Virus record (IMG/VR): IMGVR_UViG_3300034816_000006
Location: 1-64,000 of that record
Length of the DNA: 64,000 nt
Reading direction: 5' to 3' (one strand)
Origin: a virus
Position numbers and translations under genes: made by a program. Every line of letters begins with the position of its first letter. The first letter of the stretch is position 1. The notes beneath the pieces were generated by a model. It searched no databases, had not been told where the DNA came from, and saw nothing but the letters and a program-made list of their open reading frames with translations. Positions 20,440-49,588 of this stretch are shown here, piece by piece.

Positions 20440-20640
20440 CCGGGAGACAGCCGGGAGACAGCGGCCATCAGCGTCTGCAACCGGCCGCGACTGTTCAGAT
20501 CCTGGGTCGGCTACGCGATGTTCTTGTTCGTCTTGCTGTGTCATGTTCTCGACATCCCTTGATGTACGCATCGTCTGCAACGTTGGCAACGGCATATCAC
20601 CCTCGACGGGGCCCTGAATTCGGGAGACGGACGGGAGACG
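20440..20640. promoter_or_regulatory. Putative attP with integrase arm-type sites
   Basis: CGGGAGAC at 20441, 20452, 20621, 20632 (two pairs, 11-bp period); CGTCTGCAAC at 20472 and 20572; next to integrase 3' end. Confidence 0.6.
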
Positions 20641-30448: not shown

Positions 30449-30479
30449 TGCGCCCACCAGATGTCACTCGGGTGAGCGC
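30449..30479 (-). other. ~12-bp hairpin with 3' A (minihelix-like or processing stem)
   Basis: GCGCUCACC...GGUGGGCGC-A just downstream of precursor gene. Confidence 0.4.
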
Positions 30480-30490
30480 TGGTTCACGAC

Positions 30491-30673
30491 TCAGCAGATC
30501 AGTTGTGATGTGTCGCAGTCGCGACACGTGCAGGTACCGAATACACAAGTGATGCAGGTCAGCGGTTCGGCGACCGACGGCTTGGCGCCGCCGACGACGA
30601 CGCGGAACTCGGGTCCGTCGAGCATGCGGATGGTCTCGGCGTTGAGCCAGAGCTTGGTCTTGTGGCGCTTCAT
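30491..30673 (-). CDS. RiPP/lanthipeptide-like precursor peptide 1
   Basis: AGGAG RBS; leader MKRHKTKLWLNAETIRML...VVVGG; core AKPSVAEPLTCITCVFGTCTCRDCDTSQLIC. Confidence 0.75.
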   Translation of the reverse strand: MKRHKTKLWLNAETIRMLDGPEFRVVVGGAKPSVAEPLTCITCVFGTCTCRDCDTSQLIC

Positions 30674-30683
30674 CTGGAGACTC

Positions 30684-31022
30684 CTAGGTAGACCCGCAGT
30701 GAACTTCGTCAACCACCACGCTGCCATCATCGGCCGTGTGATAGCGGACGTGGCAGTACAACGTCGCGTGGTGCGATCCGAATGAGACCGACACCTCGCA
30801 CAGCATGCCGCCTGCCGCGTCGCCGCACGCGACGCGATCTACGGAATCAGGATGGTACTCCGCGCGCACATCGGCGACCGACGCGTTGCTCGAGGCCGCA
30901 ATCGGGTCGCCATCGCCGCCGCATGATGGAAAGCACGTCTCGGCTTGTGCAGTCGAGTCGACCTTGGGCTCCGTCACGCCGCATGCAGTCATCAGAACAA
31001 TCATCGCAACAATCTTCTTCAT
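30684..31022 (-). CDS. Cys-containing lipoprotein
   Basis: MKKIVAMIVLMTAC lipobox; several Cys. Confidence 0.75.
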   Translation of the reverse strand: MKKIVAMIVLMTACGVTEPKVDSTAQAETCFPSCGGDGDPIAASSNASVADVRAEYHPDSVDRVACGDAAGGMLCEVSVSFGSHHATLYCHVRYHTADDGSVVVDEVHCGST

Positions 31023-34000
31023 CTCTCCGCTCTCCTTGAGGCGTCGATGCCTCGGTCACCGCGCAGCCACCACCTGCAACGCCGCCACCGAGAAACCGAT
31101 CACTGCCGCTGCTTCTCTCCGAAGTGGCATACGTTCTTGTAGACTGCGTTGTAGTTCTCGATGATGCCGCCGCGCTCGTCGTAGTCACATGAGAGCGGCC
31201 TGAATCCGTCGTCGTAGCAACAGTTGACGGGCGGCGGCGTCGGGTTCAGGCGACCAGAGATGCCGAAGACCCGAGCTCCGATCGCGACGACAGCCGCGGC
31301 CACCAGCACGAAGATCGCCTCCTTGGTCACAGGCCTCATGCCGCACGCTCCGGCACCACCGCGCGCAGGTCTTTCTCCGCGGCATGGACTTCCTCGTGCC
31401 TGATGTCGCAGTCGCGCCAGCCGTTGAGCGCTGAGAAGAACGCGTCGACGAGGTCGGCGAGCGAGGACAGGGCGCGAACGTACGGGTCGACCACGGCCGG
31501 ATCGCCCGTGGCCGAGCGTGCACGCTGGATCCGATCGCGGAGTTCGGCGCCGTGCATCATCGGCGGGCTCCGAACCACTCGCGGCGAAGGGTCGCTGAGG
31601 TCTCGATGAGGCGATAGGCAGCCTCGACTGCCTCTTCCTCGTAGGTCCACGACTCGAAGTTCACCTTCGAGTGCTTCTCGGTCGCCATACCGGCAATGTT
31701 CCAGCCGTATAACTGTATGCCAGCGATTGAGACCAGGCTGTCCTTGCTGGCAGCACACAGCAGCACCTCGATCACCTTACGCTTCTCCTCGATCTTCATC
31801 GCCTCGTCTCCATCAGCTCAAACATCGGCAGCGTCACATCTCGCCCCGTGGCCGGCTCGCTCTCGAAATCCATCGGATCAATCACATCCTTGTCGACCGG
31901 CCCACTTCCATCCGGCCAGCCCTCGAGCGCCGGTGGCACCTGCAGCTGCTTGACCAGTTGCGCCGCGGTACAGCCGTGCAGCGCCATCGCCGCGCGGTCG
32001 AACGCCTCGATCAGTGCGTCGCGTTCGTCCAATTGTGCCATGGTCTCTCCTAGTCGTTCGATGGACTGCTTCCACGCCTTCCGTAACCCGTTGTGCTTGG
32101 CCTCGGAATCCTTGAGCGCGACGCGGGCCGTGTGAGCATCGGCCGAGCGCTCCACGTTGAGAACGCGCATGCGGGTCGCTTCGGCAACGGCGTCTCGTGC
32201 CGTGCGCTGATACTGCACGCTAGTAGCTCGCTCGCTGGCCAGCTGCTTGTTCAGGGCCTGCAGTCGGTCCGCGAGTTCATCGTTGGCGCGGTCCAGTACC
32301 TCCATCCGTCGCATGACCTGGACCAGGTGATCCGGGCTCGATATCAGGACCGCGAAGTCGCCGGCGTCATGCGCGCAGTTGACGGCGAGATCGACGAGAT
32401 AGTCGTGGTCCAACGCGTCTAGCGGGCGCAGCTGCAGCGCTGGACGAGCCGGGATGCAGGATGGCATGATGCCGGAGAGCGTTCGCTCGGGGATGTAGGG
32501 GCCGTCGACGATGGCGTCGGAGTCGTCGTCCAAGGCGGTCACGGGTCGCTCGCCTCGTAGGCAATGCAGTCGCACTCCGAGCAAGACGTCGATCCCGGGT
32601 ACTCCGGGTCGTGGCCATGTTCCTCGATGGAGTGACCGCACGTACAGGCGGTTCCGACGCTCCTGGCATTCCCGGGGACGCGCATTGCAACGACGGCCTC
32701 CGCTACTACCTTGCCCAGCTTCGCAATCGTGGCTAACTGAGCGTTCATCGCGTCTGCCACGCGCTTGCGTGCCTCGAGCTTTCCGCCTCGATGCGGTGAG
32801 CGACGGCAGCCGACCGCGACGAGACAGTCATGCCTCAGTCGCCACTCGCTGTCGGGTAGCTTCCACCGGAACTTGCCGATCTGCTCGTCTGTCAGGTCGT
32901 TGACCGTGTACATCTAGTACTCCTCGACTGTCACGTTGTCCGCCCGCCCGTCGCCCATGCTTCGCCTCGCTCGCCGCATCTCCACGGCCGCGTCCTCGCG
33001 GCTCGCGAACTCCAGCGCGTCGGCGCCGCGACCAGACCAGTCCTCGCCGGTCCACCAGAGTTGCGCGGCGTGGCCGTCGTCGTGGGTGATGCGGAAGGTT
33101 GGGGCGAGGAAGTCGGCGAGTTCGTCCATGCCCGGATCGTCGCTGCACGTGCAGTCGTCGGCGCACAGATCCGGTTCTCTCGTCTTCCACGCGTCGTAGC
33201 TGGCGGCCGGGAAGTCGAGGGCGGTCACGGATTGGCTCCGGTGGCGCGCTTGGCGTTTTCAACGCGCAGTCGGTGCGGCTTCATCACGCGGCGTCTTGCT
33301 GTGTCAGGCAGGATCACCCCGCCCATCGCCTTGCAGTTGAAGTCGCGTTCGGCACCGCATGTCGGGCACTTCACCCGACGCCAGTCAACGTGCTTGCTCT
33401 TGGCCACCGCGTAGACTGCAACCAACTGCTCGCCGATCCAGCAGACCGCGTTCAGCGCTCCGATCTTCGACGGGTCGCGACCGTCACCCCATGACGTCGA
33501 GACGTAGTTCTCGAGAGCGTCGACGATGTGACTCGGAAGCGTGACCCTGAGCGGCTGGCGCTTGCTCACGACGCACCCTCCATCGCCCGCCCGCACGCCT
33601 CGATGCCGCGCTCGATCTGCCACTTGCTTGCAGTGGACCAGCCGGAACGGGCGTCGATTCCGAGCGCGTGCCAGCACGAATGCCAGAGCGCGAAGTCGCG
33701 GTCCGCGTAGGCGCGGGCCTGGACTGAGAGGATGGCGGAGCGGGTCACTTGCCCGCCTCCGGCGTCGAGATGAGAAGCGCGGCAGCGATCGCGTTGAGAT
33801 CGCCGGCGACGGCGTGCAGCTGCGCTCGAATGAAGCCAAGGTCCTCGGGCGCGGTGAAGCCTGCCGAGTCGCAGCGCTTGATGATGCGCTGAGCGGCCTC
33901 GCGGGCGGCTGACCAGTTGAGATGGCGCGCGTCGGTCAGGACTGGTCGGATCACGGCGATACCACCTTGTCTCGCTCGATCAGGATCTTCGCGGCCTCGA

Positions 34001-34139
34001 CGCCATCATCGCCGCCCGGCGGCCTGTACCGCTCGTCGCGGTCGTGCATCCACCAGAGCCAGCCGCGCCACTCGACATCAGTGACCTGCGTGTGCCGCGT
34101 AGCATGGGACATCGCGGCGATCTCTTCCGCGCGCGACAT

Positions 34140-34409
34140 CTACAGCCTCACCTGCTGGCTGGCGATCAGGTCAACGCACCTCTGCGCGTACGCACTTGCC
34201 TCCCACGGCAGCGACGGCGAGACCTGCCAGCGCTCGAAGATCCAGGGTCCGCGACCCAGGATCTTGTCGTGCTGCGTGATGTGGACCTCGGTGAGCGTGG
34301 ACCACTCGACGGTGCCAACGCTCTCGTCGGGGAGCGTGACGATCGCGCCGAGCGGCAGCGCGGGGAGGAGTTCGGGGGTGATGGGGACGGAGGAGAGCGA
34401 GGCGTCCAT
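34140..34409 (-). CDS. First gene of leftward early operon, hypothetical
   Basis: ATG 6 nt after -10 of PL-like promoter. Confidence 0.6.
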   Translation of the reverse strand: MDASLSSVPITPELLPALPLGAIVTLPDESVGTVEWSTLTEVHITQHDKILGRGPWIFERWQVSPSLPWEASAYAQRCVDLIASQQVRL

Positions 34410-34468
34410 GTCTCCACGATAAGTGGAGAGCGGTCTGCGCGCAAGCGCTTTCCTCTACTTTTCGTGAA
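34410..34468 (-). promoter_or_regulatory. PL-like promoter with two repressor operators
   Basis: TTGCGC-17-TATCGT-6-ATG; operators TCCACGATAAGTGGA (34413-34427) and TCTACTTTTCGTGAA (34454-34468). Confidence 0.75.
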
Positions 34469-34619
34469 GTAGGTGAATCAACAGGCAGATCAGGATCTCG
34501 TATGCGAGCGGCCGCTCGACGCGGAGCTGCTCAAGCAACGAGAGAATCTTGCTGTCCTTCGAGGGGGCGCCACGACGTCTCGCCCGAGCACCACCAGTTG
34601 CTCGCATCCCTCCTCAGTA

Positions 34620-35051
34620 TCACAGGTCGGACCGAGACTTCGTCGATCGCGAGAGTATTTCTATCACAGCATCCTTCAGGGTGTCCGGAGCCTCCAACAA
34701 TAACTCACGTATCCGAGCATCGCGAGGTTCGGGTAAGGGTGGGGTCCCAACCAGCGGCGGAGGAAGGTCGAGCAATGCGCAGATATGGGGCACCTCGGCG
34801 GAACCTGTCTGCATCATCGATCCGTCGGGGCGAACTGCGAACAACTTGTACCCGGCGCTCGATGATAACCCGATCTCGTCGGCGAGCCACTGGATCCCCT
34901 TCCCCTTGCGGCGGAGGGCAAGCAAGACGAGCTCCTTCCATTCGGGCGTCATTTCCTTGACGGGCCCCTTGCCCTTGGCTCTACGACGACGCTTCGCTGA
35001 CACGGAAGTCCTCGTTACCACAGCTCTCGGCGCACTTTTCGTGGAACGCAT
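34620..35051 (-). CDS. CI-like repressor (HTH, no peptidase domain; start uncertain)
   Basis: IQWLADEIGLSSSAGYKLF HTH; divergent from Cro-like gene; flanked by operators. Confidence 0.7.
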   Translation of the reverse strand: MRSTKSAPRAVVTRTSVSAKRRRRAKGKGPVKEMTPEWKELVLLALRRKGKGIQWLADEIGLSSSAGYKLFAVRPDGSMMQTGSAEVPHICALLDLPPPLVGTPPLPEPRDARIRELLLEAPDTLKDAVIEILSRSTKSRSDL

Positions 35052-35085
35052 TGACTTGTCGGTCCACGATTAGTAGAGTGGTTGC
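35031..35085 (+). promoter_or_regulatory. PR-like promoter with two operators
   Basis: TTGACT-17-TAGAGT-6-ATG; operators CGCACTTTTCGTGGA (35031-35045) and TCCACGATTAGTAGA (35063-35077). Confidence 0.75.
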
Positions 35086-35349
35086 ATGCCAGCACACAGG
35101 GCGACGAAGCGCCGTCGCAAGAAGTTGACAGAGCGCCGCGACGCCGAGCGGAGGGCCCTCGGACTCCGACTCCGGAGCGCGCGAATCGCCGCCGGTCTCA
35201 CCGCAGAGACGATCGCCAAGAAAATGGACGTTGCGCTCAGCACATACTACTCGTGGGAGGCAGGAGAGCGCAGTCCTCGCGGACTGGCCGAACTCGCCAC
35301 CGTGGTCCGATGTTCCGTCGGCGCCCTGTACGGCGAGCGTGCCGCGTGA
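35086..35349 (+). CDS. Cro-like XRE HTH protein
   Basis: LRSARIAAGLTAETIAKKMDVALSTYYSWEAGER. Confidence 0.85.
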   Translation: MPAHRATKRRRKKLTERRDAERRALGLRLRSARIAAGLTAETIAKKMDVALSTYYSWEAGERSPRGLAELATVVRCSVGALYGERAA

Positions 35350-35969
35350 CGCCGCTCGAGATCCTTTCGCGGACCTTCCGTGAACTGCCCCTGCCGGTCC
35401 GGCAGCCGCAAACGTGCGACCACTGCAATCCGCCCCGCTCCGGTGTGTATCTGCTCGCCGACTCCGGCATGATCGTCTACGTCGGATCGAGCACCGACAT
35501 CGTCGGCAGGATTCGCTGGCACCGCAGCAGCTCCGACAAGCGATTCAATCTGGCGATGTGGATGGCCCTGCCCGCGAGGGTCCTCGAACACTACGAGGGT
35601 GCGCTCATCCGCGCCCTGTCCCCGGTGCACAACCGCAAGGCCCCCAGACACGTCGGCTATGACAACGAGATCCTGTCCGGCCTTGGACTCGCGGCCCACG
35701 ACGACGAGTACGCCAATGTGGCGACGTGGGCGCCGACGTGCGCGGCGAGAATCCCCAGCAAGCTCGGACTGCAAATCAAGGAGGCGAGACTGGGTGTCGG
35801 TATTACCCAGGATCAACTTGGCGCTGTCGTTGGGTGCTCCGGTGCAGCCGTAGCGCAGTGGGAATCCGGCGTCAGCACACCGACCTCCGATCGTCTCATC
35901 CAGATCGCGACAGTCCTCGGCGTCAACGTCGGCATTGTTGCGACTGCAACCGGGGCGGACCAGCCATGA
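35346..35969 (+). CDS. GIY-YIG domain fused to XRE HTH
   Basis: SGVYLL...VYVGSS...RIRWH...E; C-terminal ITQDQLGAVVGCSGAAVAQWESG. Confidence 0.75.
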   Translation: MTPLEILSRTFRELPLPVRQPQTCDHCNPPRSGVYLLADSGMIVYVGSSTDIVGRIRWHRSSSDKRFNLAMWMALPARVLEHYEGALIRALSPVHNRKAPRHVGYDNEILSGLGLAAHDDEYANVATWAPTCAARIPSKLGLQIKEARLGVGITQDQLGAVVGCSGAAVAQWESGVSTPTSDRLIQIATVLGVNVGIVATATGADQP

Positions 35970-36688
35970 CTCCGAATTCATCTGACGTCACTGATACGCA
36001 CTCACAGAGTGATGCACAACCCAAACACTTGTCCAGCGGGCCAAAGCGCAACAGAGATTTTCCTATCCGCCAAGTTGGTATGTCGAATGCCGACTACCTG
36101 CGCGCGCTCCGACAAATCGCAGTTGCGGAGGGCAAGTGCTACCAGTGCCGATTCCGCCCACAGAAGCCAGGGCGCCGCTCCTGTCAATCGTGCATCGATC
36201 GCAGCAAGGAGTTCGAGCGCTCGATCCGCTACAAGCGCTGCACTCACTGCTGCTGCAATCTGCCTCGCGGTTGGGAGATCCAGCTGTGCCCGGGCTGCCG
36301 CGACGACTCGAACGCCAAAGGGCGAGCGAAGACACAGGCACGGCTCGCGGCCAACCGGTGCAGCACGTGCGGCGCTCCCAAGCCGAAGAAGCGACGCCAG
36401 TGCCTGACCTGCGCTGAGCACCATCGCGTTCGTCAACTCGAGTGGCAGCGCCTCCATGGCCGCGGCGTCAAGCTCGGTTCCTGTTCGACTTGCACGGCGC
36501 TCGGACTCGTCGGCATCAACCACGACCGACGCACTCACGACCGCTACATGGCCCGCGCCCAGGCCTGGGCTCCCACTCTTCCAGCGACCACGTCTAACGG
36601 TACAGGCCTACACCCTGGGCTGCGCACTCCTCATCCTCCGGCGCGCCGGGACGTGGTCGCTGGTCTTTCGCGAGGTAACCGTGGCTAA
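35966..36688 (+). CDS. Multi-CxxC zinc-finger protein
   Basis: About seven CxxC pairs in Arg-rich context. Confidence 0.65.
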   Translation: MTPNSSDVTDTHSQSDAQPKHLSSGPKRNRDFPIRQVGMSNADYLRALRQIAVAEGKCYQCRFRPQKPGRRSCQSCIDRSKEFERSIRYKRCTHCCCNLPRGWEIQLCPGCRDDSNAKGRAKTQARLAANRCSTCGAPKPKKRRQCLTCAEHHRVRQLEWQRLHGRGVKLGSCSTCTALGLVGINHDRRTHDRYMARAQAWAPTLPATTSNGTGLHPGLRTPHPPARRDVVAGLSRGNRG

Positions 36689-39255: not shown

Positions 39256-39409
39256 GTACCCTCGATCGCACACACGCCAGCATCCTGCTCAACCCGGACA
39301 CCGCGTCGCTCAAGCGCATCGCGTGGGCATTCGGCTGCGCCAAGAAGGGCAGCGACGAGGAGCGACAACTCGAGGCATTGCTGCGCGAGAAGCTGGCCAA
39401 GGAGGCCGC

Positions 39410-40591
39410 ATGACCCACACATCAATCGTCGTCATCACGATCGTCCTGGCGATTTCCGCACTGCTGCTGTTCGGCCCGACTCCACCCCCGAAAGGACTGA
39501 CCTTGGACATCCGAATCCCACGCGCCGACCTGGCCCGCGGCCTGCGCCTCGCCTCGTCGGTGGCCGCGAAGAAACCGACGCTGCCAATCCTGGCCGACGT
39601 GCTGCTGCGCGCGAGCAAGGAACTCAGCATTGCAGCGACCGACCTTGCCGTCTCGTTGACCGCCGAGATGGCATGCGTCGTCACCAAACCAGGATCGATC
39701 GCGCTCAACGCCGACGATCTGCGCCGGTTCGTGGCGTCAGCGAGCGGCGACGAGGTCACGATCAAGGCGGATGGCGCGTGGGCCGACGTCCGCTGCGGCA
39801 AGGCGAAGTACCGGATCGCCGGGCACCAGGCACAGGACTTCCCGAAGATCCCGGAACCGGCGAAGGGCTGCGAGTGGGTCGAGACCGACGCGGACGAGCT
39901 CTGCGATTTGCTCTCGCGTGCCAGCTACGCGGTATCGCAAGACGAGTCACGGCAGGCGCTGTGCGGCGTGATGCTGGACTACGACGGCGAGACGCTCACC
40001 GTGCTGAGCGCTGACAGCCCGCGCGCGGTCCTGATCTCGCGGAAAATCCCGTTCCCGGCGCTGCCGCGGCGCATCTCGCTATGCGTCCGTGGCGCGACCG
40101 AGATCTCCAGGCTTCTCGAGGACGCGGGCAAGTGCCGCGTCGCGGTCGACGGCAAGCGCATGCACACAACCGTCGATGGTGAGACGATCAGCGCCGGGCT
40201 GCTCGACTTCGAGTGCCCAGCATGGGAGCGGCACTTGCCGAAGACAGGACTCGCGAGCGCGACCATGGACCGCGATCGCCTGCTCGAAGCGTTGAAGCGC
40301 GTTGCCTCGTTGGCCAGCGATTATCACGGCGTCGGCATGCGTTCGACGCCGACCGGGCTGTCGCTCACCGTCAAGGACAAGGACGGCGAAGAGATGAGCG
40401 ACGAGATCGAGTGCGAGATCAAGGGCGAGATCCTGATCGGTGCGCACCCGAAGCACCTGATCGACACGCTGACTCGGATGGTCGGCGAGCCGATCACGAT
40501 GCGCACGATCGGCGCGACTGACCCGATCGTTTTCGTAGACCACGGCGACGCTGGATACACCGGCGTCGTCATGCCGATGAGGATGGACTGA
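39410..40591 (+). CDS. dnaN: DNA polymerase III beta-clamp homolog (alternative TTG start at 39503)
   Basis: KPTLPILADVLL, ATDL, DFPKIP, YAVSQDESRQALCGV, VVMPMR. Confidence 0.9.
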   Translation: MTHTSIVVITIVLAISALLLFGPTPPPKGLTLDIRIPRADLARGLRLASSVAAKKPTLPILADVLLRASKELSIAATDLAVSLTAEMACVVTKPGSIALNADDLRRFVASASGDEVTIKADGAWADVRCGKAKYRIAGHQAQDFPKIPEPAKGCEWVETDADELCDLLSRASYAVSQDESRQALCGVMLDYDGETLTVLSADSPRAVLISRKIPFPALPRRISLCVRGATEISRLLEDAGKCRVAVDGKRMHTTVDGETISAGLLDFECPAWERHLPKTGLASATMDRDRLLEALKRVASLASDYHGVGMRSTPTGLSLTVKDKDGEEMSDEIECEIKGEILIGAHPKHLIDTLTRMVGEPITMRTIGATDPIVFVDHGDAGYTGVVMPMRMD

Positions 40592-42164: not shown

Positions 42165-42834
42165 ATGTCACCATCAAGCGCGCCGGCGGTTACGACCCGC
42201 GACTCGGCCGCGACCACCCGCAGAACCAGGACCCGACGCTTGAGGCGCATGCGCACGTCGTCGACACGCTGACGATCCCGGCCGGCGAAGGGCACAGCGA
42301 CTACAGGTTCCGGTGGCGCTGTACGTGCGGTCGCGCTGGAAAGTGGCACGCGGCGCGCGTCAGCTCCGCCCGCAACGGCGGCGCTCGGCACGTGGCCGCG
42401 ATGGAGCGGGGACGATGAGCGACGATACCTGCGACAGCGAGATCGAGCGCCGCGTCGCGGCCGACGGACGACTCGAGTACCGCGTCACTTGCAGCTGTGG
42501 CTTCGTAGGTCCATGGCGGCTCGCGCGCAGTTCTGCCCGTCGTGACCGCGACAACCACGAGGACCGGCGCGCGTGCGGTGAAGCATGACCTGCACCCTCT
42601 GCTCTCGCCTCCCCGCGCTGCGGAACAGCGACTGGTGCCGCGCGTGCTGGCAGTTGTGGTGGGAGTTCAAACACGCATGACTACCTGCCCGAACTGCAAG
42701 CGCACCGTCGCAGTGCTGGTCGTCGTGGTGTCTCGCGGCGGAGAGAGCGGGCTGTGTGTTGGATGCTACGGCAGGGATGGCGAGCCTCTCCGCGCCATGC
42801 CGACGACAATCCCGCCACCGCGAGGTCCACGACG

Positions 42835-44163
42835 GTGATTCAGCTCCGTCCGTACCAGGAGCGGGCCGTCACCGCTCTCCGCGCCGCGTACCAGCGCGGG
42901 CGGCGCGCGCCGTTGCTCGTGGCCCCGACCGGAGCCGGAAAGACGATCATCGCAGCGTATGTGATCCAGTCCGCGGCAGCGCTCGGCAACCGTTCCCTGT
43001 TCGTCGCGCCTCGACGCGAGCTGATCGGCCAGACCGTGCGCAAGCTAGCCGATGCCGGAATCTGGGATGTGCGCGTGATCCAGGCCGCGAACGATACAGG
43101 CAGGCCAGACGCTCCGGTCATCGTCGGCAGCATCCAGACGCTGATCCTTCCGAGGTGGCTCGGACGACTACCAAACGCCGACCTCGTCATCGCCGACGAG
43201 GCGCATCACATGGCTGCCACGAACTGGTCCAAGCTTGCCGGTGCGTATCCCACTGCGCGTTGGCTTGGCCTCAGTGCCACGCCTGAGCGAGCTGATGGCA
43301 AAGCGCTTGGTGACATCTTCGATGATCTGGTCGTCGCGGCAAGCGTTCGTGAACTGACCGAGTTCGGCAACTTGGTCCCATGCCGCGTCTTCGCGCCGCC
43401 GATCGAACTCGACGTTGCCGAGTTGGCGCTCGACCCGGTCTCCGCATACCAGCAGCACGGCGCAGGCAGTCTTGCCGTTGTATTCTGCGTGACCGTCGAG
43501 CATGCGACGCGCGTCGCTGCAGACTTCAACGCGGCTGGTGTCCCGGCCGACATCGTCACCGGAACCACGCGCGCAGCGATCCGCGAGCAGACGCTCCAGC
43601 GCTGGCGCAGTGGCGACATCAGAGTTGTCACCAACTGCGGCGTGCTAACCGAAGGCTTCGATCTGCCAGCACTTCAGACCTGCATCCTGGCTCGCCGCTT
43701 CGGACATCCCGGGCTGTTCCTGCAGTGCGTCGGCCGCGCGCTGCGGCCCGCGCCGGATAAGACCCGGGCCACCGTCATCGACCTCTGCGGCAGCGTGCAC
43801 AAGCACGGCCTGCCTGACATGGACCGCGAGTACAGCCTCGAGGGCAAGCCGATCAGCAGCGTGACGCGCGACGCGATCCGGCAGTGCCCGAGCTGCGGCG
43901 CGGTGTTCCTCGCAGGTGCGACCGCGTGTCCACAGTGCGGAGCAGAGCTGCCGCGACGGCCAGCAGAACTGCCGCGATCCACGGGCGTCGGCGTCGTTGA
44001 CGTCACCGCGATCCCTAGCCCGCCGCAGCGCAGCTACACGCTCAGCATCACGGCGAAGTATTATGGTCAGTGCAGGAAGTGCACGGGATCTATCTCGCCA
44101 GGTGAGCAAATCTACTGGTCCAAAGGCGAGAAACCTCGACATGTTGAGTGTCGCACGGAGTAG
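42835..44163 (+). CDS. SF2 DEAH helicase with C-terminal Zn ribbon
   Basis: LRPYQ, PTGAGKT, DEAHH, SATP, TEGFD, QCVGRALR. Confidence 0.95.
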   Translation: MIQLRPYQERAVTALRAAYQRGRRAPLLVAPTGAGKTIIAAYVIQSAAALGNRSLFVAPRRELIGQTVRKLADAGIWDVRVIQAANDTGRPDAPVIVGSIQTLILPRWLGRLPNADLVIADEAHHMAATNWSKLAGAYPTARWLGLSATPERADGKALGDIFDDLVVAASVRELTEFGNLVPCRVFAPPIELDVAELALDPVSAYQQHGAGSLAVVFCVTVEHATRVAADFNAAGVPADIVTGTTRAAIREQTLQRWRSGDIRVVTNCGVLTEGFDLPALQTCILARRFGHPGLFLQCVGRALRPAPDKTRATVIDLCGSVHKHGLPDMDREYSLEGKPISSVTRDAIRQCPSCGAVFLAGATACPQCGAELPRRPAELPRSTGVGVVDVTAIPSPPQRSYTLSITAKYYGQCRKCTGSISPGEQIYWSKGEKPRHVECRTE

Positions 44164-44165
44164 TA

Positions 44166-44507
44166 ATGCCACGCTCGCAACAAGAATCTGTACTTCAAGA
44201 CGCAATACGCCTCGCGCTCGGACGTGATCCTGGGGTCTTATTATTCCGTAACAACATCGGCCACGCCGTAATGGCTTACGGCGGACGCGTCACGTTCGGT
44301 GTCGGCGGACCAGGCGGTGCTGACCTGATCGGCATCCTAGACGGCAGGCCGTTGGCCATGGAGGTGAAGACTCCAACGGGCAGGCAGTCCAAGGAGCAGC
44401 GCATGTTCCAGCAGCTGTGGGAGACGCGTGGCGGCGTCTACCTGATGCCGAGGAGCGTGGACGAAGCGGTGGCGATGATCTCCGCGGCACGTGAGGCCAA
44501 GCAGTGA
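44166..44507 (+). CDS. VRR-NUC domain nuclease
   Basis: FRNN, GGADLIG, EVKTPTGRQSKEQ. Confidence 0.9.
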   Translation: MPRSQQESVLQDAIRLALGRDPGVLLFRNNIGHAVMAYGGRVTFGVGGPGGADLIGILDGRPLAMEVKTPTGRQSKEQRMFQQLWETRGGVYLMPRSVDEAVAMISAAREAKQ

Positions 44508-44522
44508 TCGATCGCGACAACT

Positions 44523-44984
44523 TCACGATGCTAGGTAGCGAGCGGCAGCTACCAGCAAATCCGGCGCGTCCCGAAACAGACCAAGCCCTCGATTGCACGG
44601 CCCGCACAGCAAACCGCGAATTCGGTTCGTCTTGTGACAGTGGTCTATGTCAAACTTCGATGTACGCTGCGGTGGACCCTTGCAGATTGCACACTTGCCT
44701 TCCTGGGCCTTCAACATCTCCCCGTAACGCTCAACGCTTATCCCATATCTCGACAAGCGCGCGACGTCGCCGGGAGTCAGACCGGCCTGAGCGCGTCTCT
44801 CCCTTAGGTTCTTCATGCGCCTGCGGATGGCCTCCCTCGCGGCAATCGGGTTTCTCTCTCTCCACTCTCTATTGTACTGCACGCGACATGTTCTACAGTA
44901 CGGGTATAGGCCGTCAAGCCACTTCTTCGCCTTGCCAAACTGGTCCGTCGATTTCTGTTGTCCGCATCTTGTGCACTTCTTCAC
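44523..44984 (-). CDS. Endonuclease VII-type HNH (homing-like) endonuclease
   Basis: YGIS...QEGKCAIC...DHCHKTNRIRGLLCGPCNRGLG; own TG-TATGAT extended -10. Confidence 0.9.
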   Translation of the reverse strand: MKKCTRCGQQKSTDQFGKAKKWLDGLYPYCRTCRVQYNREWRERNPIAAREAIRRRMKNLRERRAQAGLTPGDVARLSRYGISVERYGEMLKAQEGKCAICKGPPQRTSKFDIDHCHKTNRIRGLLCGPCNRGLGLFRDAPDLLVAAARYLAS

Positions 44985-45042
44985 CCATTCATCATAGCAC
45001 GTATGCAATAGTAGAGTGCAACACCAAAGACGGAGACCCTGC

Positions 45043-47148
45043 ATGATGTCAGTGCTAGACTCCGCATCACTCTGCGCCGAGCGCGGCCTCCACACGATTC
45101 CGGTGTGGACCGCGACCAACGGCGTCTGCAACTGCACGCGCGGAGCCGAGTGCATCAGTCCCGGCAAGCACCCCGCGATCGACGCGTGGCAGACCTCGGC
45201 GACGACCGATTTGCACGTGATCCGCGACTGGTTCGCGGGCGGGCGCTATAACATTGGCGTGGTTTGCGGCGCGTCGAATGTCGTCGTCATCGACATCGAC
45301 CCGCGCAACGGCGGCGACGTGACGTTTGCGGCACTCGTCAACGATCTTGGACCGCTGCCGGACACGCTGACGGCAGACTCCGGCGGCGGCGGGACGCATT
45401 TCGTGTTCCGCAGGCCCCAAGGCGAACTCGTCAGCAAACTTGGCCAAGGTGTCGATCTACTGCGCGACTCGCGCCAGTTCCTCGTCGAGCCGTCGCTGCA
45501 TCCCTCAGGCAAGCGCTATCAGTGGCGGACCGGCCACGCGCCGGACGAGATCGCGATCGCGGAACTCCCTTCAGCCTGGCAGCAACGCCTACATCCGCGC
45601 ATCGCGCCGCGACCCACCGCGCCACCGCGCCACCGCGCCGACGACAGCGACCGCGTCAAGCGCGCACGCGCCTATCTTGCCAAGATCCCTGGCGCGGTGT
45701 CAGGCGATGCGGGCCACACTGCGACGTTCAACGCGGTAGCCGCGGTGATGATCGGATTCGACCTCTCCGAACAAGACGCGCTCAACATCATCGCAGCTGA
45801 CTACAACCCACGGTGCGACCCGCCGTGGTCCGAGCGCGAGCTCGAGCACAAGATCAGGTCCGTGGCCCAGCGCTGCGAGCGCGAACGCGGCTACTTGCTC
45901 GTGGACCGACCGCGATCAGGCACATCCCAACCTGCAGCCCCAGCGTCTCCACCCTCAGCGCCCCCGTCCAGCGACTGGCAGTCCCGCCTCCTGTTCAACG
46001 CCGAGCAACGCCCACGACGCGCCTACCACAACACCGCGGTGTTCGTGCGCGATCACCCCGAGTTCGCGAACAGATGGAGCTACGACGAGATGACCGGAGC
46101 GCCCTACGTCGACGGCAAGCCGATGGATCCGGAGATGGTCCACTACATCCGGGCCCAGGCAGATTGCAGACTCGGCTATACGCCGTCCGCCGCTGACGTC
46201 GAGGCTGCGATCGTCGCCGCGGCGAAGGAGCAGTCGTTCCACCCGATTCGGCAGTACCTGCGCTCGCTGGACTGGGACGGAACGCCGCGCCTGCACGCGA
46301 TGGCCAACGACTACCTGTCCTCGGACTCGCCGCTCCACGCCTCGATGGTGCACAAGTTCATGATCGGCGCCGCGGCCCGCGTGCTCTGGCCCGGCTGCAA
46401 GCTCGACACCGCGCTGATGCTAGTCGGGCCTCAAGGTCTCAAGAAGTCTACGTTTTTCTCGATTTTAGGCGGCCGCTGGCACTCCGATACCTACATCGAT
46501 ATCACGAACAAGGACGCGGCGCTGCAGTTGCACGGCAGCTGGATCTACGAACTGTCCGAGCTCGAAAACGTCGTTACCGGTGCGCGCGAGTCCAGGCTCA
46601 AGGCGTGGATTACCAGCACACACGACACGTACCGGCCACCATATGGCAAGGCCGCGGAGCGTCGAGCGCGTAGTGCAGCGATCTGCGGAACCACGAACCG
46701 CAAGCAGTTCCTGACCGACGACAGCGGCAGCCGGCGCTTCTGGATCGTTCCAGTCGGCTGTGAGGTTCCAGTAGAACTCCTTGCCGAACTCCGTGATCAG
46801 CTGTGGGCCGAGGCAGTCTGCGCGGCCGAGAGCGGCGAGACTTGGTGGTTCGGCAACACAGTCGACGAGTCGGCCAGAGAGGTGGCGAACCGGGACTTCG
46901 CAGACGATGACGACCCATGGACCGGAGCTGTCGCCGCCTGGGTGGAGCGTCCCTCGGTAGCCATGAGTGCGACATCGGTGACCGAGATTCTAACGCTCGC
47001 CCTGGACGTCAAGCTCGAGCGCCAGGACCGCGGGTCACAGATGCGGGTCGCCAGGATCCTGCAGCGCCTGGGCTGGGAGCGGTACCGCAGCAGTACTGTG
47101 GGTAGGCCATGGGGGTATCGGCGACGCTCACTGCCCGGAGTTGAGTAG
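45043..47148 (+). CDS. Bifunctional primase-polymerase fused to VirE/VapE helicase
   Basis: PGKHP, NIG, IDIDPRNGG, SGGGGTH; GPQGLKKST, GTTN, DDSGSRRF. Confidence 0.9.
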   Translation: MMSVLDSASLCAERGLHTIPVWTATNGVCNCTRGAECISPGKHPAIDAWQTSATTDLHVIRDWFAGGRYNIGVVCGASNVVVIDIDPRNGGDVTFAALVNDLGPLPDTLTADSGGGGTHFVFRRPQGELVSKLGQGVDLLRDSRQFLVEPSLHPSGKRYQWRTGHAPDEIAIAELPSAWQQRLHPRIAPRPTAPPRHRADDSDRVKRARAYLAKIPGAVSGDAGHTATFNAVAAVMIGFDLSEQDALNIIAADYNPRCDPPWSERELEHKIRSVAQRCERERGYLLVDRPRSGTSQPAAPASPPSAPPSSDWQSRLLFNAEQRPRRAYHNTAVFVRDHPEFANRWSYDEMTGAPYVDGKPMDPEMVHYIRAQADCRLGYTPSAADVEAAIVAAAKEQSFHPIRQYLRSLDWDGTPRLHAMANDYLSSDSPLHASMVHKFMIGAAARVLWPGCKLDTALMLVGPQGLKKSTFFSILGGRWHSDTYIDITNKDAALQLHGSWIYELSELENVVTGARESRLKAWITSTHDTYRPPYGKAAERRARSAAICGTTNRKQFLTDDSGSRRFWIVPVGCEVPVELLAELRDQLWAEAVCAAESGETWWFGNTVDESAREVANRDFADDDDPWTGAVAAWVERPSVAMSATSVTEILTLALDVKLERQDRGSQMRVARILQRLGWERYRSSTVGRPWGYRRRSLPGVE

Positions 47149-47169
47149 TGCATCTGTCATACCAGGATC

Positions 47170-47365
47170 GTCCCGTCTGCCGATTGGGACGCGTCTCTTG
47201 TGGCCTATCCCAATGGGACGCGGCTAAGTGCTCATTGATGTCTTGCTTATTCCCTCTTTGTCCTAACTGTCCCATTCTAAAGAAGGAAGAAAGATATAAA
47301 TATAGTACCTCGAGTTATAGGAAGGAGGGAAATGGGGGGACGAGACGGGACGGACGGGACGGCCT
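47170..47365. other. Putative replication origin
   Basis: GTCCC/GGGAC repeats around AT-rich core, directly after Prim-Pol/VirE. Confidence 0.55.
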
Positions 47366-48525
47366 CCAGATTCCGATAGCGCACCGCGGTGTTGCGCAAT
47401 CGATCCAAAAAGTCCTAAGCCTTTTATGGCGTTGGGCGTCCCAAGCTATAGTGAGCGCCATTCTGCCAACCTGTCACACCAACGACCGTGACCATATGTG
47501 ACCATACATGCAACCTACTGAAATCAGACAAACAGCGAATCTTGGAACTGCCGCCACCGCCTTGCATCTATCGGAGATCACATGAAAGCCCACTGTATCG
47601 AATTCACCGGCGATCGTGCCACCGTGGTGCTGACACCCGGATGGCTGCGGCGTCTGTTCGGGGTGAGGGAGGTTGCCGTGGACCTGGAGTGGCTTGGTAC
47701 CAAGAACGCCAAGGACTGGTACGCGCAGGGCACCGGCCGCTCCGTCCTTGAACTTACCCACGGTGACCTCATCAGGGACGCCCTCGACTTCCGCGAGGTC
47801 GGCACCGAGCGCCGCGGTGCCCATGCCAAACCACGGCTGTCGCTGGTCGGCGACGAGGCGGTGATGCCGTGAGAGCGCTGGAAGCGAACCTCGACGGCCA
47901 ACTACACGTCACCGGAGCGTGCTGCATGGACCGCGTGTGCCGACGATGCGGCGCCCGTGAGCACTGGCAGCCGGTGCATGGCGGCATCGCCGAGCTCTGC
48001 GAGGAGTGCGTCGAGGATGCCGTCGAGTGGAAGGCTCGCGGCACGTACCTGACCGACGTGATGGACGAGAGCGGTCACGGCGTCGTCGGATCGACGCTGG
48101 TGCTCGCATGACCTGGCTCGACCACTTCGCCTGCGCCCTCGTCGACCAGGCCGCGATCCAGTCGGAGCCGGTAGCGGCAGTCAAGTGCCAGCGCTTGGCC
48201 GAAGCTGACGACGCACTGCGTAGGTCAGTCGAGCCACCGCCGCCCAACCCGCTCGCGCCCCACCTGACCGCCGTGCTGGCCATCGTACGCCGTACCGGCG
48301 GCTACATGGACCCGGAGGACCAGGCGGTACTGCGTGCAGCTACGGCAGCGGTGGCCGGTATACGAGAATGCGGAAATCCGTGAATCGCGGTGAGAGGCGA
48401 ACCGCTGGCGTGGCCGTTTTGGCTGCTAGAATCGCGCAGGCGGCGCTTTCGACTCCGGATCGGTCGACGCGGCACCTGCAGTGTGTGAATTCGATACAGG
48501 CCACACAGGCAGCGGAGGCTGGTTC

Positions 48526-49197
48526 ATGATCTTCACCCGCCACGCCGTGCAGCGGTACCGCCAGTTCCACATGCTGGACCAGCCCACCGCTACGGACGAT
48601 GACGCATACGACGTGCTGATGCGGCATGGCCCGGCTGCCGTGCTGAGTCGCACCAGGACGCATCGCGGTGACCCGGTGTGGATGCTCGAGGCGCTGGGCG
48701 CTGAGCTCGTGTGCAAACACGAGAACGGTACCGTCACATGTGTCACCGTGCTTCCTCCTCCGCGGTTTCGCGGCCTGACGCCGCTGCAAGCGGAGCGCGT
48801 TGCGGACTCGCATCGTGAGGCGCGTGAGCGGGCCGAAGCTGCGCAACGTGTGGTCGCTGAGACGAGCGCTGCCATGGCTCGGGCCATCGTGGCCCGGAGG
48901 GTCGCGGCCGCGCCGGCTGCGATCGCGGTCCGCAAGACCGAGCTGGCCATGCTGCAGGCCGACCTGTCTGCGGCCAAGCGCGCCGCGACGTTCGCCGTGG
49001 CCGAGCGCGACAGCCTCGGGGCTGCGCTCAAGACCATGCGACACCAGCTGACCAGCGACGAGACGGTAAGCAAGCTGAAGGCCGCGCTCAAGGTCGCCGT
49101 GCGTCGCCTGATGGAGGTCGGCGACGAGGACGGGCTGGCGGCGATCGCCGCGGTCGACCCGGGCCTAGCGTCGGTGGAATTCGTGGAGATCCGATGA
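48526..49197 (+). CDS. HAxxRY-motif domain plus coiled coil
   Basis: MIFTRHAVQRY...CVTVLP resembles 22324..22581. Confidence 0.55.
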   Translation: MIFTRHAVQRYRQFHMLDQPTATDDDAYDVLMRHGPAAVLSRTRTHRGDPVWMLEALGAELVCKHENGTVTCVTVLPPPRFRGLTPLQAERVADSHREARERAEAAQRVVAETSAAMARAIVARRVAAAPAAIAVRKTELAMLQADLSAAKRAATFAVAERDSLGAALKTMRHQLTSDETVSKLKAALKVAVRRLMEVGDEDGLAAIAAVDPGLASVEFVEIR

Positions 49198-49389
49198 ACG
49201 CCTACCACCGCCGCATCGGCCATGTCACCGCGCCCGCCGAGGTCGTCGACCCGGAGATGCGCATGTCGCGACTGCGCCAAATCTGCAGGACCTGGCGATC
49301 GTGCTTGGACATGGAGATTGGCAATTTCACTGACCACGATCCGGTCCGCGATCGCTGGACTCCGTCACGTCACACCGTTACGACGACTG

Positions 49390-49426
49390 AATCGACCTCC
49401 CACCCCTCCCCGCGCACCATGACCAG
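49390..49426 (+). promoter_or_regulatory. AATCG-type promoter of precursor 2
   Basis: AATCGACCT 37 nt before ATG. Confidence 0.5.
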
Positions 49427-49588
49427 ATGCAACGCCGCAAGATCGCGCTTCGCCCCGAGACCATCCGCCACCTGACCGACCTCGGCGCTGTCGTCGGTGG
49501 GCGGCCCACGAGTTGGCCGTACTGCCTGGGCGCGGAAGCGGTTCAGACCACGCAGACGATCAAGTGCCCGACGGCGGCGTGCGGGTGA
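49427..49588 (+). CDS. RiPP/lanthipeptide-like precursor peptide 2 (absent from ORF track)
   Basis: MQRRKIALRPETIRHLTDLGAVVGG + RPTSWPYCLGAEAVQTTQTIKCPTAACG. Confidence 0.72.
   Translation: MQRRKIALRPETIRHLTDLGAVVGGRPTSWPYCLGAEAVQTTQTIKCPTAACG

What the first reader, a model, noticed from the sequence alone, without database searches (positions are those of the whole stretch)
30491..49588. Two orphan RiPP/lanthipeptide-like precursors that may use or jam host machinery
Seen: two unlinked small ORFs (30491..30673 minus; 49427..49588 plus) share the leader K[LI]xLxxETIRxL...VVGG and have unrelated Cys- and Ser/Thr-rich cores. No LanB/C, LanM, LanKC, YcaO, radical SAM or peptidase-ABC exporter is recognisable in 64 kb. 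Each lies near a Cys-containing lipoprotein gene. Established: LxLxKx5L-type leaders and double-glycine cleavage sites mark lanthipeptide precursors; promiscuous synthetases such as ProcM process dispersed precursors; LanI immunity proteins are lipoproteins. Inference: the phage feeds its peptides into a host synthetase/exporter as signal, toxin or decoy, one in the early operon and one under a late-type promoter.
Basis: partly seen in the sequence, partly recalled or inferred. Interest (0 to 1): 0.88.

Follow-up and report, generated by a model that had tools for sequence, protein, structure and literature searches.

The report
Orphan lanthipeptide precursor genes in phage
A temperate soil phage carries two real genes for small cysteine-rich peptides whose front ends match the recognition leaders of bacterial ring-forming (class I lanthipeptide) peptides, but it has no enzyme or exporter to mature them, so they most likely use, or interfere with, the host's machinery.

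Summary
Both ORFs exist as described and share a leader that occurs nowhere else in the 76-kb phage. The window is the first 64 kb of a 97%-complete temperate siphovirus from a rhizosphere metagenome.

A profile made from the two peptides finds a large family of 40-90-aa soil peptides: MKK..KLxLxxET[ILV]RxL..[VA]VGG followed by a Cys/Ser/Thr-rich variable core. Several members pass NCBIfam NF038153 (lant_leader_L1a, class I lanthipeptide). The phage peptides themselves do not.

In metagenome contigs with enough flank, 14 of 22 family members sit directly upstream of lanC. Two long loci read lanA-lanC-lanB-C39/ABC exporter. In 401 Planctomycetota genomes, LanB occurs in 6, and these include all 3 with strong leader hits.

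The whole phage has no LanB, LanC, C39 or other recognisable RiPP enzyme. Five further IMG/VR records from about four unrelated lineages, four of them complete, carry one to three such orphan peptides and no enzymes.

So these are orphan LanA-type precursors. Dependence on the host is inferred, because the host is unknown. The LanI-like lipoprotein idea is not supported.

This scan's notes record the same phenomenon in other phage genomes. I found no paper describing it.

The parts
30491..30673 (-). Peptide 1 gene (P0001, 60 aa), a LanA-type orphan precursor. Leader codons are 30587-30673 (29 aa, ending VVGG), core codons 30494-30586 (31 aa, 6 Cys, 7 Ser/Thr), stop 30491-30493.
   Evidence: Translation. 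Coding score. Leader HMM 29.7 bits, E 1e-7. A 93%-identical homologue, P0003, lies on an unrelated 1.5-kb contig. tblastn gives 41% identity, E 4e-6, to a LanA next to lanC-lanB in L084. Leu(-12), Glu(-8), Phe(-7) and Val(-4) before GG fit the C39 recognition consensus quoted in PMC6363468.
30681..30685 (-). AGGAG ribosome-binding site, 7 nt before the ATG of peptide 1. It overlaps the stop codon of the upstream lipoprotein gene.
   Evidence: Read directly from the sequence.
30450..30479 (-). Hairpin (9+2 bp) just after the stop of peptide 1, with no U tract.
   Evidence: Fold of the 71-nt intergenic stretch: -25.5 kcal/mol, z -1.9, with 8 of 200 shuffles folding as well. No canonical terminator was found. 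This is weak evidence.
30684..31022 (-). 112-aa predicted lipoprotein (signal peptide ending LMTAC) directly upstream of peptide 1. Function unknown. It is a neighbour, not a demonstrated part of the system.
   Evidence: Sequence. No Pfam or PHROGs family. A lipoprotein in the same position in phage G406 is not significantly similar.
49427..49588 (+). Peptide 2 gene (P0002, 53 aa), a LanA-type orphan precursor. Leader codons are 49427-49501 (25 aa, ending VVGG), core codons 49502-49585 (28 aa, 3 Cys, 6 Ser/Thr), stop 49586-49588.
   Evidence: Translation. Coding score. Leader HMM 21.2 bits, E 5e-5. Profile search E 1e-8. There is no in-frame start upstream of the ATG.
49390..49397 (+). AATCGACC box 37 nt upstream of the ATG of peptide 2. 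The same box at the same spacing (37-38 nt) precedes the structural-gene starts 5988, 8849, 11564, 59748, 63757 and 66431. The start at 74592 has the variant GGATCGCCCC at the same position.
   Evidence: Pattern count and distances. Upstream sequences lined up.
49734..50015 (+). 93-aa secreted Cys-containing protein ('lp2': signal-like N-terminus, four conserved Cys), 146 nt downstream of peptide 2. It belongs to a separate phage gene family and is not a demonstrated part of the system.
   Evidence: Homologues in G788 (64% identity) and G404 (52%). Nine IMG/VR loci carry the family, and only one has a leader peptide within 4 kb. None of seven further records has a leader match.

Best explanation
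Both ORFs are genuine precursor genes of the class I lanthipeptide type (LanA-like). Each has an N-terminal recognition leader (K-L-x-L-x-x-ETIRxL, the LxLxKx5L type), a double-glycine cleavage site, and a hypervariable Cys/Thr/Ser-rich core. A temperate soil siphovirus carries them as orphan cargo, with no maturation genes of its own.

Most likely mechanism, inferred rather than shown: in a host that owns a LanB dehydratase, a LanC cyclase and a C39-peptidase ABC exporter for peptides with this leader, the phage peptides are bound through their leader. Their Ser/Thr are then dehydrated and cross-linked to Cys, the leader is cut after GG, and the product is exported. The infected or lysogenic cell therefore makes new phage-specified lanthipeptides.

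Peptide 1 would be expressed with the leftward non-structural gene block. Peptide 2 would be expressed with the structural genes.
For: Shown:

1. Family membership by sequence.
- A profile made only from the phage peptides and P0003 retrieves small peptides with the same leader from 1.84e9 representatives.
- Five of these pass the curated cut-off of NCBIfam NF038153, lant_leader_L1a: P0004, P0005, P0007, P0010 and P0011.
- NCBI names family members in Phycisphaerae and Thermoanaerobaculia 'class I lanthipeptide'.

2. Link to enzymes.
- 80 metagenome loci were fetched with a leader-only DNA pattern. About 80 of the 84 hits are short MKK...VVGG peptides with Cys-rich cores.
- lanC lies about 60-700 bp downstream in 14 of the 22 loci that have at least 1.5 kb of downstream sequence, and lanB is present in 11.
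- Loci L109 and L111 read lanA-lanC-lanB-(x)-Peptidase_C39/ABC.
- G216:C4 reads lanA-lanC-lanB.

3. Genome-level association.
- LanB occurs in 6 of 401 sampled Planctomycetota genomes. All 3 genomes with strong leader hits are among those 6.
- By my arithmetic, the hypergeometric p is about 2e-6.

4. Orphan copies far from the enzymes also exist in bacteria that own LanBC, at G216:C130.

5. The phage cores have the composition of LanBC-linked cores, whose medians are 37 aa, 5 Cys and 6 Ser/Thr.

6. Peptide 1 carries Leu-12/Glu-8/Phe-7/Val-4 before GG. This matches the C39 recognition consensus (PMC6363468).

7. The phage has no LanB, LanC, C39 or other RiPP enzyme.

8. Recurrence in phages.
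- Five other IMG/VR records carry 1-3 leader peptides and have no LanB, LanC or C39. Four of them have terminal repeats and are rated complete.
- They share few genes with this phage.

9. Selection.
- Between the related phages G404 and G407, the leader shows pN/pS of about 0.13 and the core about 1.1.
- The counts behind these ratios are small.

Background: PMC7268733 describes LxLxKx5L + GG leaders of class I LanAs with C39 proteases.
Against: - The phage peptides do not reach NF038153 themselves. There was no hit at E<=10. The Lys of LxLxKx5L is Ala in peptide 1 and Pro in peptide 2. Peptide 2 has a 2-residue shorter leader, which shifts the -12 position.
- The host is unknown, so no cognate LanBC or exporter can be pointed to. 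The only lead is a TerL relative at 70% identity in a Kofleriaceae (Myxococcota) MAG. No close TerL was found in 401 Planctomycetota or 381 Actinomycetota genomes.
- There is no expression, mass-spectrometry or phenotype evidence.
- Part of the HMM evidence is circular. The training leaders were fetched with a pattern derived from the phage motif. The enzyme linkage of those loci, and NF038153, are the independent parts.
Confidence: 0.6

Rival explanations
1. Decoy or jammer. The peptides are made during infection to occupy the leader-binding sites of the host's LanB/LanC or C39 exporter. This would block synthesis or export of a host lanthipeptide, for example one with anti-phage activity. 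The product itself would not matter.
For: - Class I lanthipeptide clusters with anti-phage function ('lanthiphages') are reported in Actinobacteria (bioRxiv 10.1101/2024.06.26.600839; review PMC12360287).
- Peptide 2 sits behind the same box as the structural genes, which suggests expression during lytic growth.
- Orphan leader peptides recur in unrelated phages, sometimes in 2-3 copies.
- The leader is under stronger constraint than the core in the G404/G407 pair.
Against: - A pure decoy needs only a leader, yet every phage copy keeps a Cys/Ser/Thr-rich core of normal LanA length and composition.
- The core of peptide 1 is 100% conserved in P0003, while its leader differs at 3 residues.
- Lanthiphages are known only from Actinobacteria, and nothing here ties the L1a leader family to them.
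- No defence context is known for the L1a-type clusters.
Confidence: 0.15
2. Unmodified double-glycine peptides. The leader serves only for cleavage and export by a host C39-ABC transporter. The Cys-rich cores form disulfides, as in class II bacteriocin-like toxins or signals, without lanthionine rings.
For: - Peptide 1 has a complete C39 recognition pattern: Leu-12, Glu-8, Phe-7, Val-4, GG.
- About a third of bacterial family members with enough flank have no lanC or lanB next to them.
- C39 exporters are far commoner than LanB. G216 has 8 C39 matches but one LanB.
Against: - At genome level, strong leader hits were found only in LanB-positive genomes: 3 of 3, against 6 of 401 overall.
- The N-terminal KLxLxxETxRxL block lies upstream of the part a C39 domain reads, and it is the most conserved part of the family. 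This fits a second reader such as LanB.
- The cores hold as many Ser/Thr as Cys.
Confidence: 0.15
3. Passenger remnants. These are fragments of bacterial lanthipeptide clusters picked up by recombination and not used by the phage.
For: - No function has been shown.
- The genes are small and lie among genes of unknown function.
- One further phage copy (G405 10191-10328) looks truncated before the GG.
Against: - Both ORFs are intact and have start signals.
- Peptide 1 is conserved at 93% identity on another contig.
- Intact copies recur in at least four unrelated phage lineages without any flanking lanB/lanC debris.
- The leader is under purifying selection in the G404/G407 pair.
Confidence: 0.07

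Closest known systems
Class I lanthipeptide precursors (LanA) with LxLxKx5L...GG leaders: NCBIfam NF038153 lant_leader_L1a; the pinensin-type family described for Bacteroidetes in PMC7268733
   Same: Short peptide. The leader has the L-x-L-x-x-x5-L spacing and an ETxRxL block, and ends in Gly-Gly. The core is variable and rich in Cys and Ser/Thr. Bacterial relatives sit in lanA-lanC-lanB-C39/ABC clusters.
   Different: The phage peptides score below NF038153 and lack the motif's Lys. They are encoded in a phage without any LanB, LanC or exporter. The relatives found here come from high-GC soil bacteria (Planctomycetota, Acidobacteriota MAGs), not Bacteroidetes.
Prochlorosins and ProcM (class II): many dispersed precursors matured in trans by one promiscuous synthetase
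   Same: One conserved leader with many unrelated cores, and precursor genes far from the enzyme genes. The same arrangement is seen here in bacterium G216, where an orphan copy lies on contig C130 and LanBC on C4.
   Different: The enzymes are class I (separate LanB and LanC), the leader family is different, and here the dispersed precursors lie on a virus rather than on the producer's chromosome. The ProcM facts come from the literature (abstracts listed) and my own knowledge.
Prophage-borne bacteriocin clusters, e.g. sublancin on SPbeta (bioRxiv 10.1101/2020.10.01.322628)
   Same: A temperate phage carries a gene for a ribosomal peptide that would change its lysogen's secreted peptide repertoire.
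   Different: SPbeta carries the whole cluster: precursor, modifying enzymes, immunity and transporter. This phage carries only precursors.
Double-glycine leader peptides of C39 peptidase-ABC exporters (class II bacteriocins, competence pheromones; LahT study PMC6363468)
   Same: A GG cleavage site preceded by Leu-12, Glu-8, a hydrophobic residue at -7 and Val-4 in peptide 1.
   Different: There is an additional conserved N-terminal KLxLxxET block, and relatives are linked to LanB/LanC rather than to exporters alone.
Lanthiphages: class I lanthipeptide clusters with anti-phage function (bioRxiv 10.1101/2024.06.26.600839)
   Same: Class I lanthipeptide machinery that interacts with phage infection. 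This gives the decoy reading a concrete target.
   Different: Those systems are host-encoded, actinobacterial and complete clusters. No sequence link to the peptides here was tested or found.

Membership tests
Class I lanthipeptide precursor, L1a leader type (NCBIfam NF038153) | Score at or above the curated cut-off (22 bits) of the NF038153 leader model | tested here: not met
   P0001, P0002 and P0003 gave no hit at E<=10. A six-frame search of the whole phage also gave none. Relatives retrieved by the phage-peptide profile do pass: P0004 50.1, P0011 31.5, P0005 27.9, P0010 24.7 and P0007 22.8 bits.
Class I lanthipeptide precursor, L1a leader type (NCBIfam NF038153) | Leader with LxLxKx5L spacing | tested here: inconclusive
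   The spacing is kept: L8-x-L10-x-A12-x5-L18 in peptide 1 and I6-x-L8-x-P10-x5-L16 in peptide 2. The Lys is replaced in both. The motif is as defined in PMC7268733.
Class I lanthipeptide precursor, L1a leader type (NCBIfam NF038153) | Leader ends in a double glycine, followed by a core containing both Cys and Ser/Thr | tested here: met
   VVGG at residues 26-29 and 22-25. The cores hold 6 Cys with 7 Ser/Thr and 3 Cys with 6 Ser/Thr, within the range of LanBC-linked cores.
Class I lanthipeptide precursor, L1a leader type (NCBIfam NF038153) | Significant match to leaders of peptides that are physically linked to lanC/lanB | tested here: met
   An HMM of 24 LanBC-linked leaders gives 29.7 bits (E 1e-7) and 21.2 bits (E 5e-5), with the next ORF of this phage at E 0.5. 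tblastn of P0001 against the LanA of L084 gives 41% identity, E 4e-6. Caveat: the training set was fetched with a pattern derived from the phage motif.
Class I lanthipeptide precursor, L1a leader type (NCBIfam NF038153) | LanB dehydratase and LanC cyclase encoded in the same replicon or cell | tested here: not met
   Not met for the replicon: none was found in the 76-kb phage. For the host cell this cannot be tested with these tools, because the host is unknown.
Class I lanthipeptide precursor, L1a leader type (NCBIfam NF038153) | Dehydrated Ser/Thr and (methyl)lanthionine rings in the product | not testable with these tools
   Needs mass spectrometry of the peptide made in a LanBC-positive cell.
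Double-glycine leader substrates of C39 peptidase-ABC exporters | Gly-Gly at -2/-1 with Leu(-12)-x3-Glu(-8)-Leu(-7) and a hydrophobic residue at -4 | tested here: met
   Met for peptide 1: L18(-12), E22(-8), F23(-7), V26(-4), G28-G29. Only partly met for peptide 2: D18(-8), L19(-7), V22(-4), but R14 at -12. The consensus is as quoted in PMC6363468.
Double-glycine leader substrates of C39 peptidase-ABC exporters | Cognate C39-ABC transporter gene nearby | tested here: not met
   No Peptidase_C39 match in the phage. No ABC transporter family among the 82 of its proteins scanned, and no tblastn match to two PCATs. Bacterial relatives do have one.
   The lp2 family (49734-50015) occurs in nine other IMG/VR loci, and only one has a leader peptide within 4 kb. 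None of seven further records has a leader match. The lipoprotein at 30684-31022 has no family, and its positional counterpart in G406 is not significantly similar.

The most novel reading that the evidence does not exclude
Soil phages of several unrelated lineages carry orphan lanthipeptide-leader peptides as a tool aimed at the host's RiPP machinery. One option is a counter-defence decoy that saturates LanB/LanC or the C39 exporter of an anti-phage or kin-killing lanthipeptide system. The other is reprogramming of that machinery so that the infected cell or lysogen releases phage-specified lanthipeptides that act on neighbouring cells as toxin or signal. Either would be a new class of phage-host interaction, in which a virus supplies only the substrate of a host natural-product pathway.
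Probability: 0.2. Interest if true: 0.9.

Novelty: new variant of a known kind. Interest (0 to 1): 0.62.

Why it matters
Phages are known to carry whole bacteriocin clusters, such as sublancin on SPbeta. A virus that carries only the substrate peptides of a host lanthipeptide pathway is a different arrangement. I found no paper describing it in four literature searches.

If host LanBC enzymes mature the peptides, phages would be a mobile source of new cores for lanthipeptide machineries. That offers a route to rapid diversification of these compounds in soil.

If the peptides block the machinery, they would be a new kind of counter-defence against chemical anti-phage systems.

Either way the hypothesis can be tested directly with two short genes and a LanBC-exporter cluster from a same-leader locus.

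Practically, phage genomes become a place to mine natural core sequences that same-leader class I enzymes may accept.

Tried and rejected
- **Direct family scans.** Pfam and NCBIfam gave no hit for the two peptides. PF28317, precomputed on some relatives, is not in the local Pfam copy, so I do not know what it is.
- The contigs of P0003-P0012 and of the Kofleriaceae TerL relative could not be read.
- **My error.** The single genome-contig scan used a pattern with one N too many, which put it out of frame. Its 3 hits are chance, so named bacterial genomes could not be scanned for the leader. The corrected pattern was used on viral and metagenome contigs. The chance hits did give handles for sampling two phyla.
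- **Close relatives of P0001 in IMG/VR.** None found.
- **Host search.** No megablast match among cultured phages, and TerL is at most 35.5% identical to theirs. No close TerL in 401 Planctomycetota (best 37%) or 381 Actinomycetota (best 32%) genomes. The sequencing-run search returned only rhizosphere metagenomes, one of which is probably the source sample.
- **Hidden enzyme next to the peptides.** The 212-aa and 238-aa neighbours have no family, are not related to each other, and have no conserved counterpart in the other phages.
- **Lipoprotein cassette idea.** The G000 and G406 upstream lipoproteins align with similar Cys spacing, but the score is not significant: z 1.4, with 205 of 2000 shuffles as good.
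- **lp2 linkage.** Tested and rejected.
- **Regulatory scans.** The sigma-70 promoter and intrinsic terminator scan around peptide 1 found nothing.
- **Leader spacing variants in IMG/VR.** A 5-residue spacing gave 0 hits and a 6-residue spacing gave 1 genuine hit.

Full report
**What the window is.** The window is the first 64 kb of a 76,195-bp IMG/VR virus record rated 97% complete. It has about 65% G+C. The record was assembled from, or at least is held almost whole by, a rhizosphere metagenome.

It is a temperate tailed phage. The genes found are:
- tape-measure protein, tail proteins and a beta-helix fibre
- tyrosine integrase at 20597-21706 (-), a PD-(D/E)XK nuclease and a DnaN-like clamp
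- primase-helicase
- large terminase at 57948-59738
- portal, tail tube and tail assembly chaperone

It has no close cultured relative: no megablast match, and TerL is at most 35.5% identical.

**Checking the observation.** Both small ORFs translate cleanly.
- Without gaps the leaders read K-L-W-L-N-A-ETIR-M-L and K-I-A-L-R-P-ETIR-H-L, followed by VVGG after 7 and 5 residues.
- The ET[ILVM]Rx[LIM] motif occurs only at these two places in all six frames of the whole genome.
- Both ORFs have coding-type codon bias.
- Peptide 1 has an AGGAG 7 nt before its ATG.
- The ATG of peptide 2 is the first possible start in its frame.
- That ATG lies 37 nt after an AATCGACC box. AATCGNCC occurs 13 times in the genome. 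Six further copies sit 37-38 nt before called starts of structural genes (5988, 8849, 11564, 59748, 63757, 66431). The start at 74592 has the variant GGATCGCCCC at the same position.

Peptide 1 lies in the long leftward block of small non-structural genes that also holds the nuclease and the integrase.

**What the peptides are.** Neither peptide hits Pfam or NCBIfam directly. A word-based search found only one near-identical homologue. This is P0003, 93% identical, with an identical core and three changes in the leader, on a 1.5-kb contig.

A profile of the two phage leaders plus P0003 was run against 1.84 billion representative proteins. It retrieved nine further small proteins (35-132 aa) with the same layout, MKR..KKLxLNxET[IVL]RxL..EL..VVGG, eight of them followed by a Cys-rich tail (the ninth, P0007, has none). 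A second search with the 11-sequence alignment gave 76 proteins at E<=10.

Two pieces of evidence here are independent of my own patterns:
- Five of these relatives pass the curated cut-off of NCBIfam NF038153, 'lant_leader_L1a, class I lanthipeptide'.
- NCBI's pipeline names members from Phycisphaerae and Thermoanaerobaculia MAGs 'class I lanthipeptide'.

The motif is the LxLxKx5L + Gly-Gly leader reported for class I LanAs, often with a C39 protease in the cluster (PMC7268733).

My first attempt, on the genome collection, had one N too many.

- About 80 of the 84 pattern hits are short ORFs starting MKK... and ending in a Cys/Ser/Thr-rich tail, some in tandem sets of two or three. Chance hits would not look like this.
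- tblastn with a LanC and a LanB found lanC in 24 of the 80 loci and lanB in 12, although the median contig is only 2.1 kb. Counted over the 75 loci with a cleanly called peptide, these are 23 and 11.
- Among the 22 loci with at least 1.5 kb downstream of the peptide, 14 have lanC starting about 60-700 bp after it and 11 have lanB.
- Pfam confirmed that L109 and L111 read lanA, LANC_like, Lant_dehydr_N+C, then a Peptidase_C39/ABC_membrane/ABC_tran exporter.

The chance hits of the failed scan supplied handles for a phylum sample.
- In 401 Planctomycetota genomes, the leader profile gave strong hits (E<=1e-4) in three: G216, G119 and G339.
- Lant_dehydr_N occurs in only six of the 401, and these include all three. 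By my arithmetic the hypergeometric p is about 2e-6.
- In G216, one family member lies directly before lanC-lanB on contig C4.
- The best-scoring member in that genome is an orphan on contig C130, among unrelated genes.

So bacteria that own LanBC also keep dispersed precursors.

**Do the phage peptides belong?**
- An HMM built from the 24 distinct leaders of LanBC-linked metagenome peptides scores peptide 1 at 29.7 bits (E 1e-7) and peptide 2 at 21.2 bits (E 5e-5) among 5,444 six-frame ORFs of five phages. The next ORF of this phage scores E 0.5.
- This test is partly circular, because the training loci were found with a pattern derived from the phage motif. It also picked up phage copies that do not fit the pattern, including peptide 2.
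- P0001 aligns by tblastn with the LanA of L084, which lies next to lanC-lanB (41% identity, E 4e-6).
- The phage cores match LanBC-linked cores in length and composition.
- Peptide 1 also shows Leu-12, Glu-8, Phe-7 and Val-4 before GG. This is the recognition pattern of C39 peptidase domains (PMC6363468).
- Peptide 2 has a leader two residues shorter and fits that pattern only partly.

Against strict membership, both peptides fall below NF038153, and the motif's Lys is Ala or Pro.

**Orphan status.** Six-frame searches of the whole phage found no LANC_like, Lant_dehydr_N or Peptidase_C39. Pfam scans of 82 of its proteins, covering every called gene of 95 aa or more, found no radical SAM, YcaO, ABC transporter or other RiPP enzyme. 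tblastn with three LanB, two LanC and two exporter sequences found nothing. The immediate neighbours of unknown function are not related to each other, have no family, and are not shared by the other peptide-carrying phages.

**Recurrence in phages.** The corrected pattern hit four IMG/VR records, and a variant with one residue less spacing hit a fifth. All are genuine short leader peptides.
- Four of the five records have terminal repeats and are rated complete: G404 (89.9 kb), G405 (64.7 kb), G406 (58.4 kb) and G788 (47.5 kb).
- The fifth, G407, is a fragment related to G404.
- None has LanB, LanC or C39.
- G406 has three unlinked copies. G405 has two, one of them apparently truncated.
- These phages share only a handful of genes with the present one (TerL 24% identical), so several lineages are involved.
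- Between G404 and G407, the leader shows far fewer non-synonymous than synonymous changes (pN 0.03, pS 0.22). The core shows pN about equal to pS. This is the usual RiPP pattern, though the counts are small.

This scan's own notebook lists follow-up reports of the same phenomenon in other phage genomes. Those are unchecked AI notes. My IMG/VR scans are the evidence I rely on.

**The lipoproteins.** Both neighbours exist, but the immunity reading does not hold up.
- The 93-aa secreted protein after peptide 2 has clear homologues in G788 (64% identity, about 1.2 kb downstream of that phage's peptide) and in G404 (52%, 31 kb away from its peptide).
- A search of IMG/VR found nine loci with this family. 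Only the G788 locus has a leader peptide within 4 kb.
- Seven further records, all incomplete, have no leader match at all.
- The lipoprotein before peptide 1 has no family. A lipoprotein of the same size in the same position in G406 is not significantly similar.

**Host.** The host remains unknown. The best lead is a TerL at 70% identity in a Kofleriaceae (Myxococcota) MAG. Unnamed contigs reach 79% identity. Samples of Planctomycetota and Actinomycetota hold no close TerL. A class I cluster in a myxobacterium is on record (PMC11876861), but its leader type is not given there.

**Verdict.** The peptides are best read as orphan class I lanthipeptide-type precursors with an L1a-like double-glycine leader.

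It is inferred, not shown, that they are matured by host LanB, LanC and a C39 exporter. The inference rests on the tight enzyme linkage of the family in bacteria and on the complete lack of such genes in the phage.

Three alternatives remain open: a decoy for host machinery, which is made concrete by the reported anti-phage class I lanthipeptides; unmodified exported peptides; and unused passenger genes.

I found no paper describing phage-borne orphan lanthipeptide precursors. Known cases are whole clusters on prophages.

Noticed in passing
window 5951, 8812, 11526, 49390, 59710, 63719; genome 66393 and 74555: An AATCG(C/T/A)CC box lies at a fixed 37-38 nt before the start codons of six structural genes and of peptide 2, and the start at 74592 has the variant GGATCGCCCC at the same position. 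Most of these genes have no clear Shine-Dalgarno, and several have a CGTC/CGAC about 10-15 nt before the start. This looks like a phage-specific, possibly ECF-sigma-type, promoter giving leaderless or very short-leader mRNAs.
   Followed up: partly
phage genome, gene not located (one of the 63 proteins of alignment A5): One protein matches zf-HC2, the zinc finger typical of anti-sigma factors (E 2e-7). Others match MT-A70 methyltransferase, DUF1643 and DnaT_2. An anti-sigma-like protein could relate to the late-promoter box.
   Followed up: no
window 49734-50015 (+); L163:7175-7456 (-); L025:11980-12279 (-); L168-L174: An undescribed family of about 93-aa secreted phage proteins with four invariant Cys (CPAG...EC...CTGG..PI...TVGCQ). 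It is present in at least ten high-GC IMG/VR records and has no Pfam or PHROGs family.
   Followed up: partly
G406 (L032:2988-3335 +, then the peptide at G406 23350 +): In the unrelated complete phage G406, a 115-aa lipoprotein gene lies directly upstream of a leader peptide, as in this window. The two lipoproteins have similar length and Cys spacing, but the alignment score is not significant.
   Followed up: yes
L035:5928-8207 (G216:C4, upstream of lanA-lanC-lanB): A sigma-54 activator (GAF + Sigma54_activat + HTH_8) lies directly upstream of the planctomycete class I cluster. A sigma-54 regulator is also listed in a myxobacterial class I cluster (PMC11876861).
   Followed up: no
P0004 (132 aa, read-derived protein): One family member holds two tandem copies of the leader (KKLRLNKETVRELKDSELKT...GG), each followed by a short Cys core. 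It is either a fused double precursor or tandem genes read through.
   Followed up: no
L052, L056, L069 (metagenome loci): Two or three leader-family precursor genes lie in tandem with different cores, as in multi-precursor lanthipeptide clusters.
   Followed up: no
P0005, P0019, P0035, P0044 and others: The precomputed Pfam annotation PF28317.1 is attached to some family members, but the local Pfam copy does not contain it. It may be a recent leader-family model.
   Followed up: partly
window 39410-40591 (+): The phage encodes a complete three-domain DNA polymerase III beta clamp.
   Followed up: no
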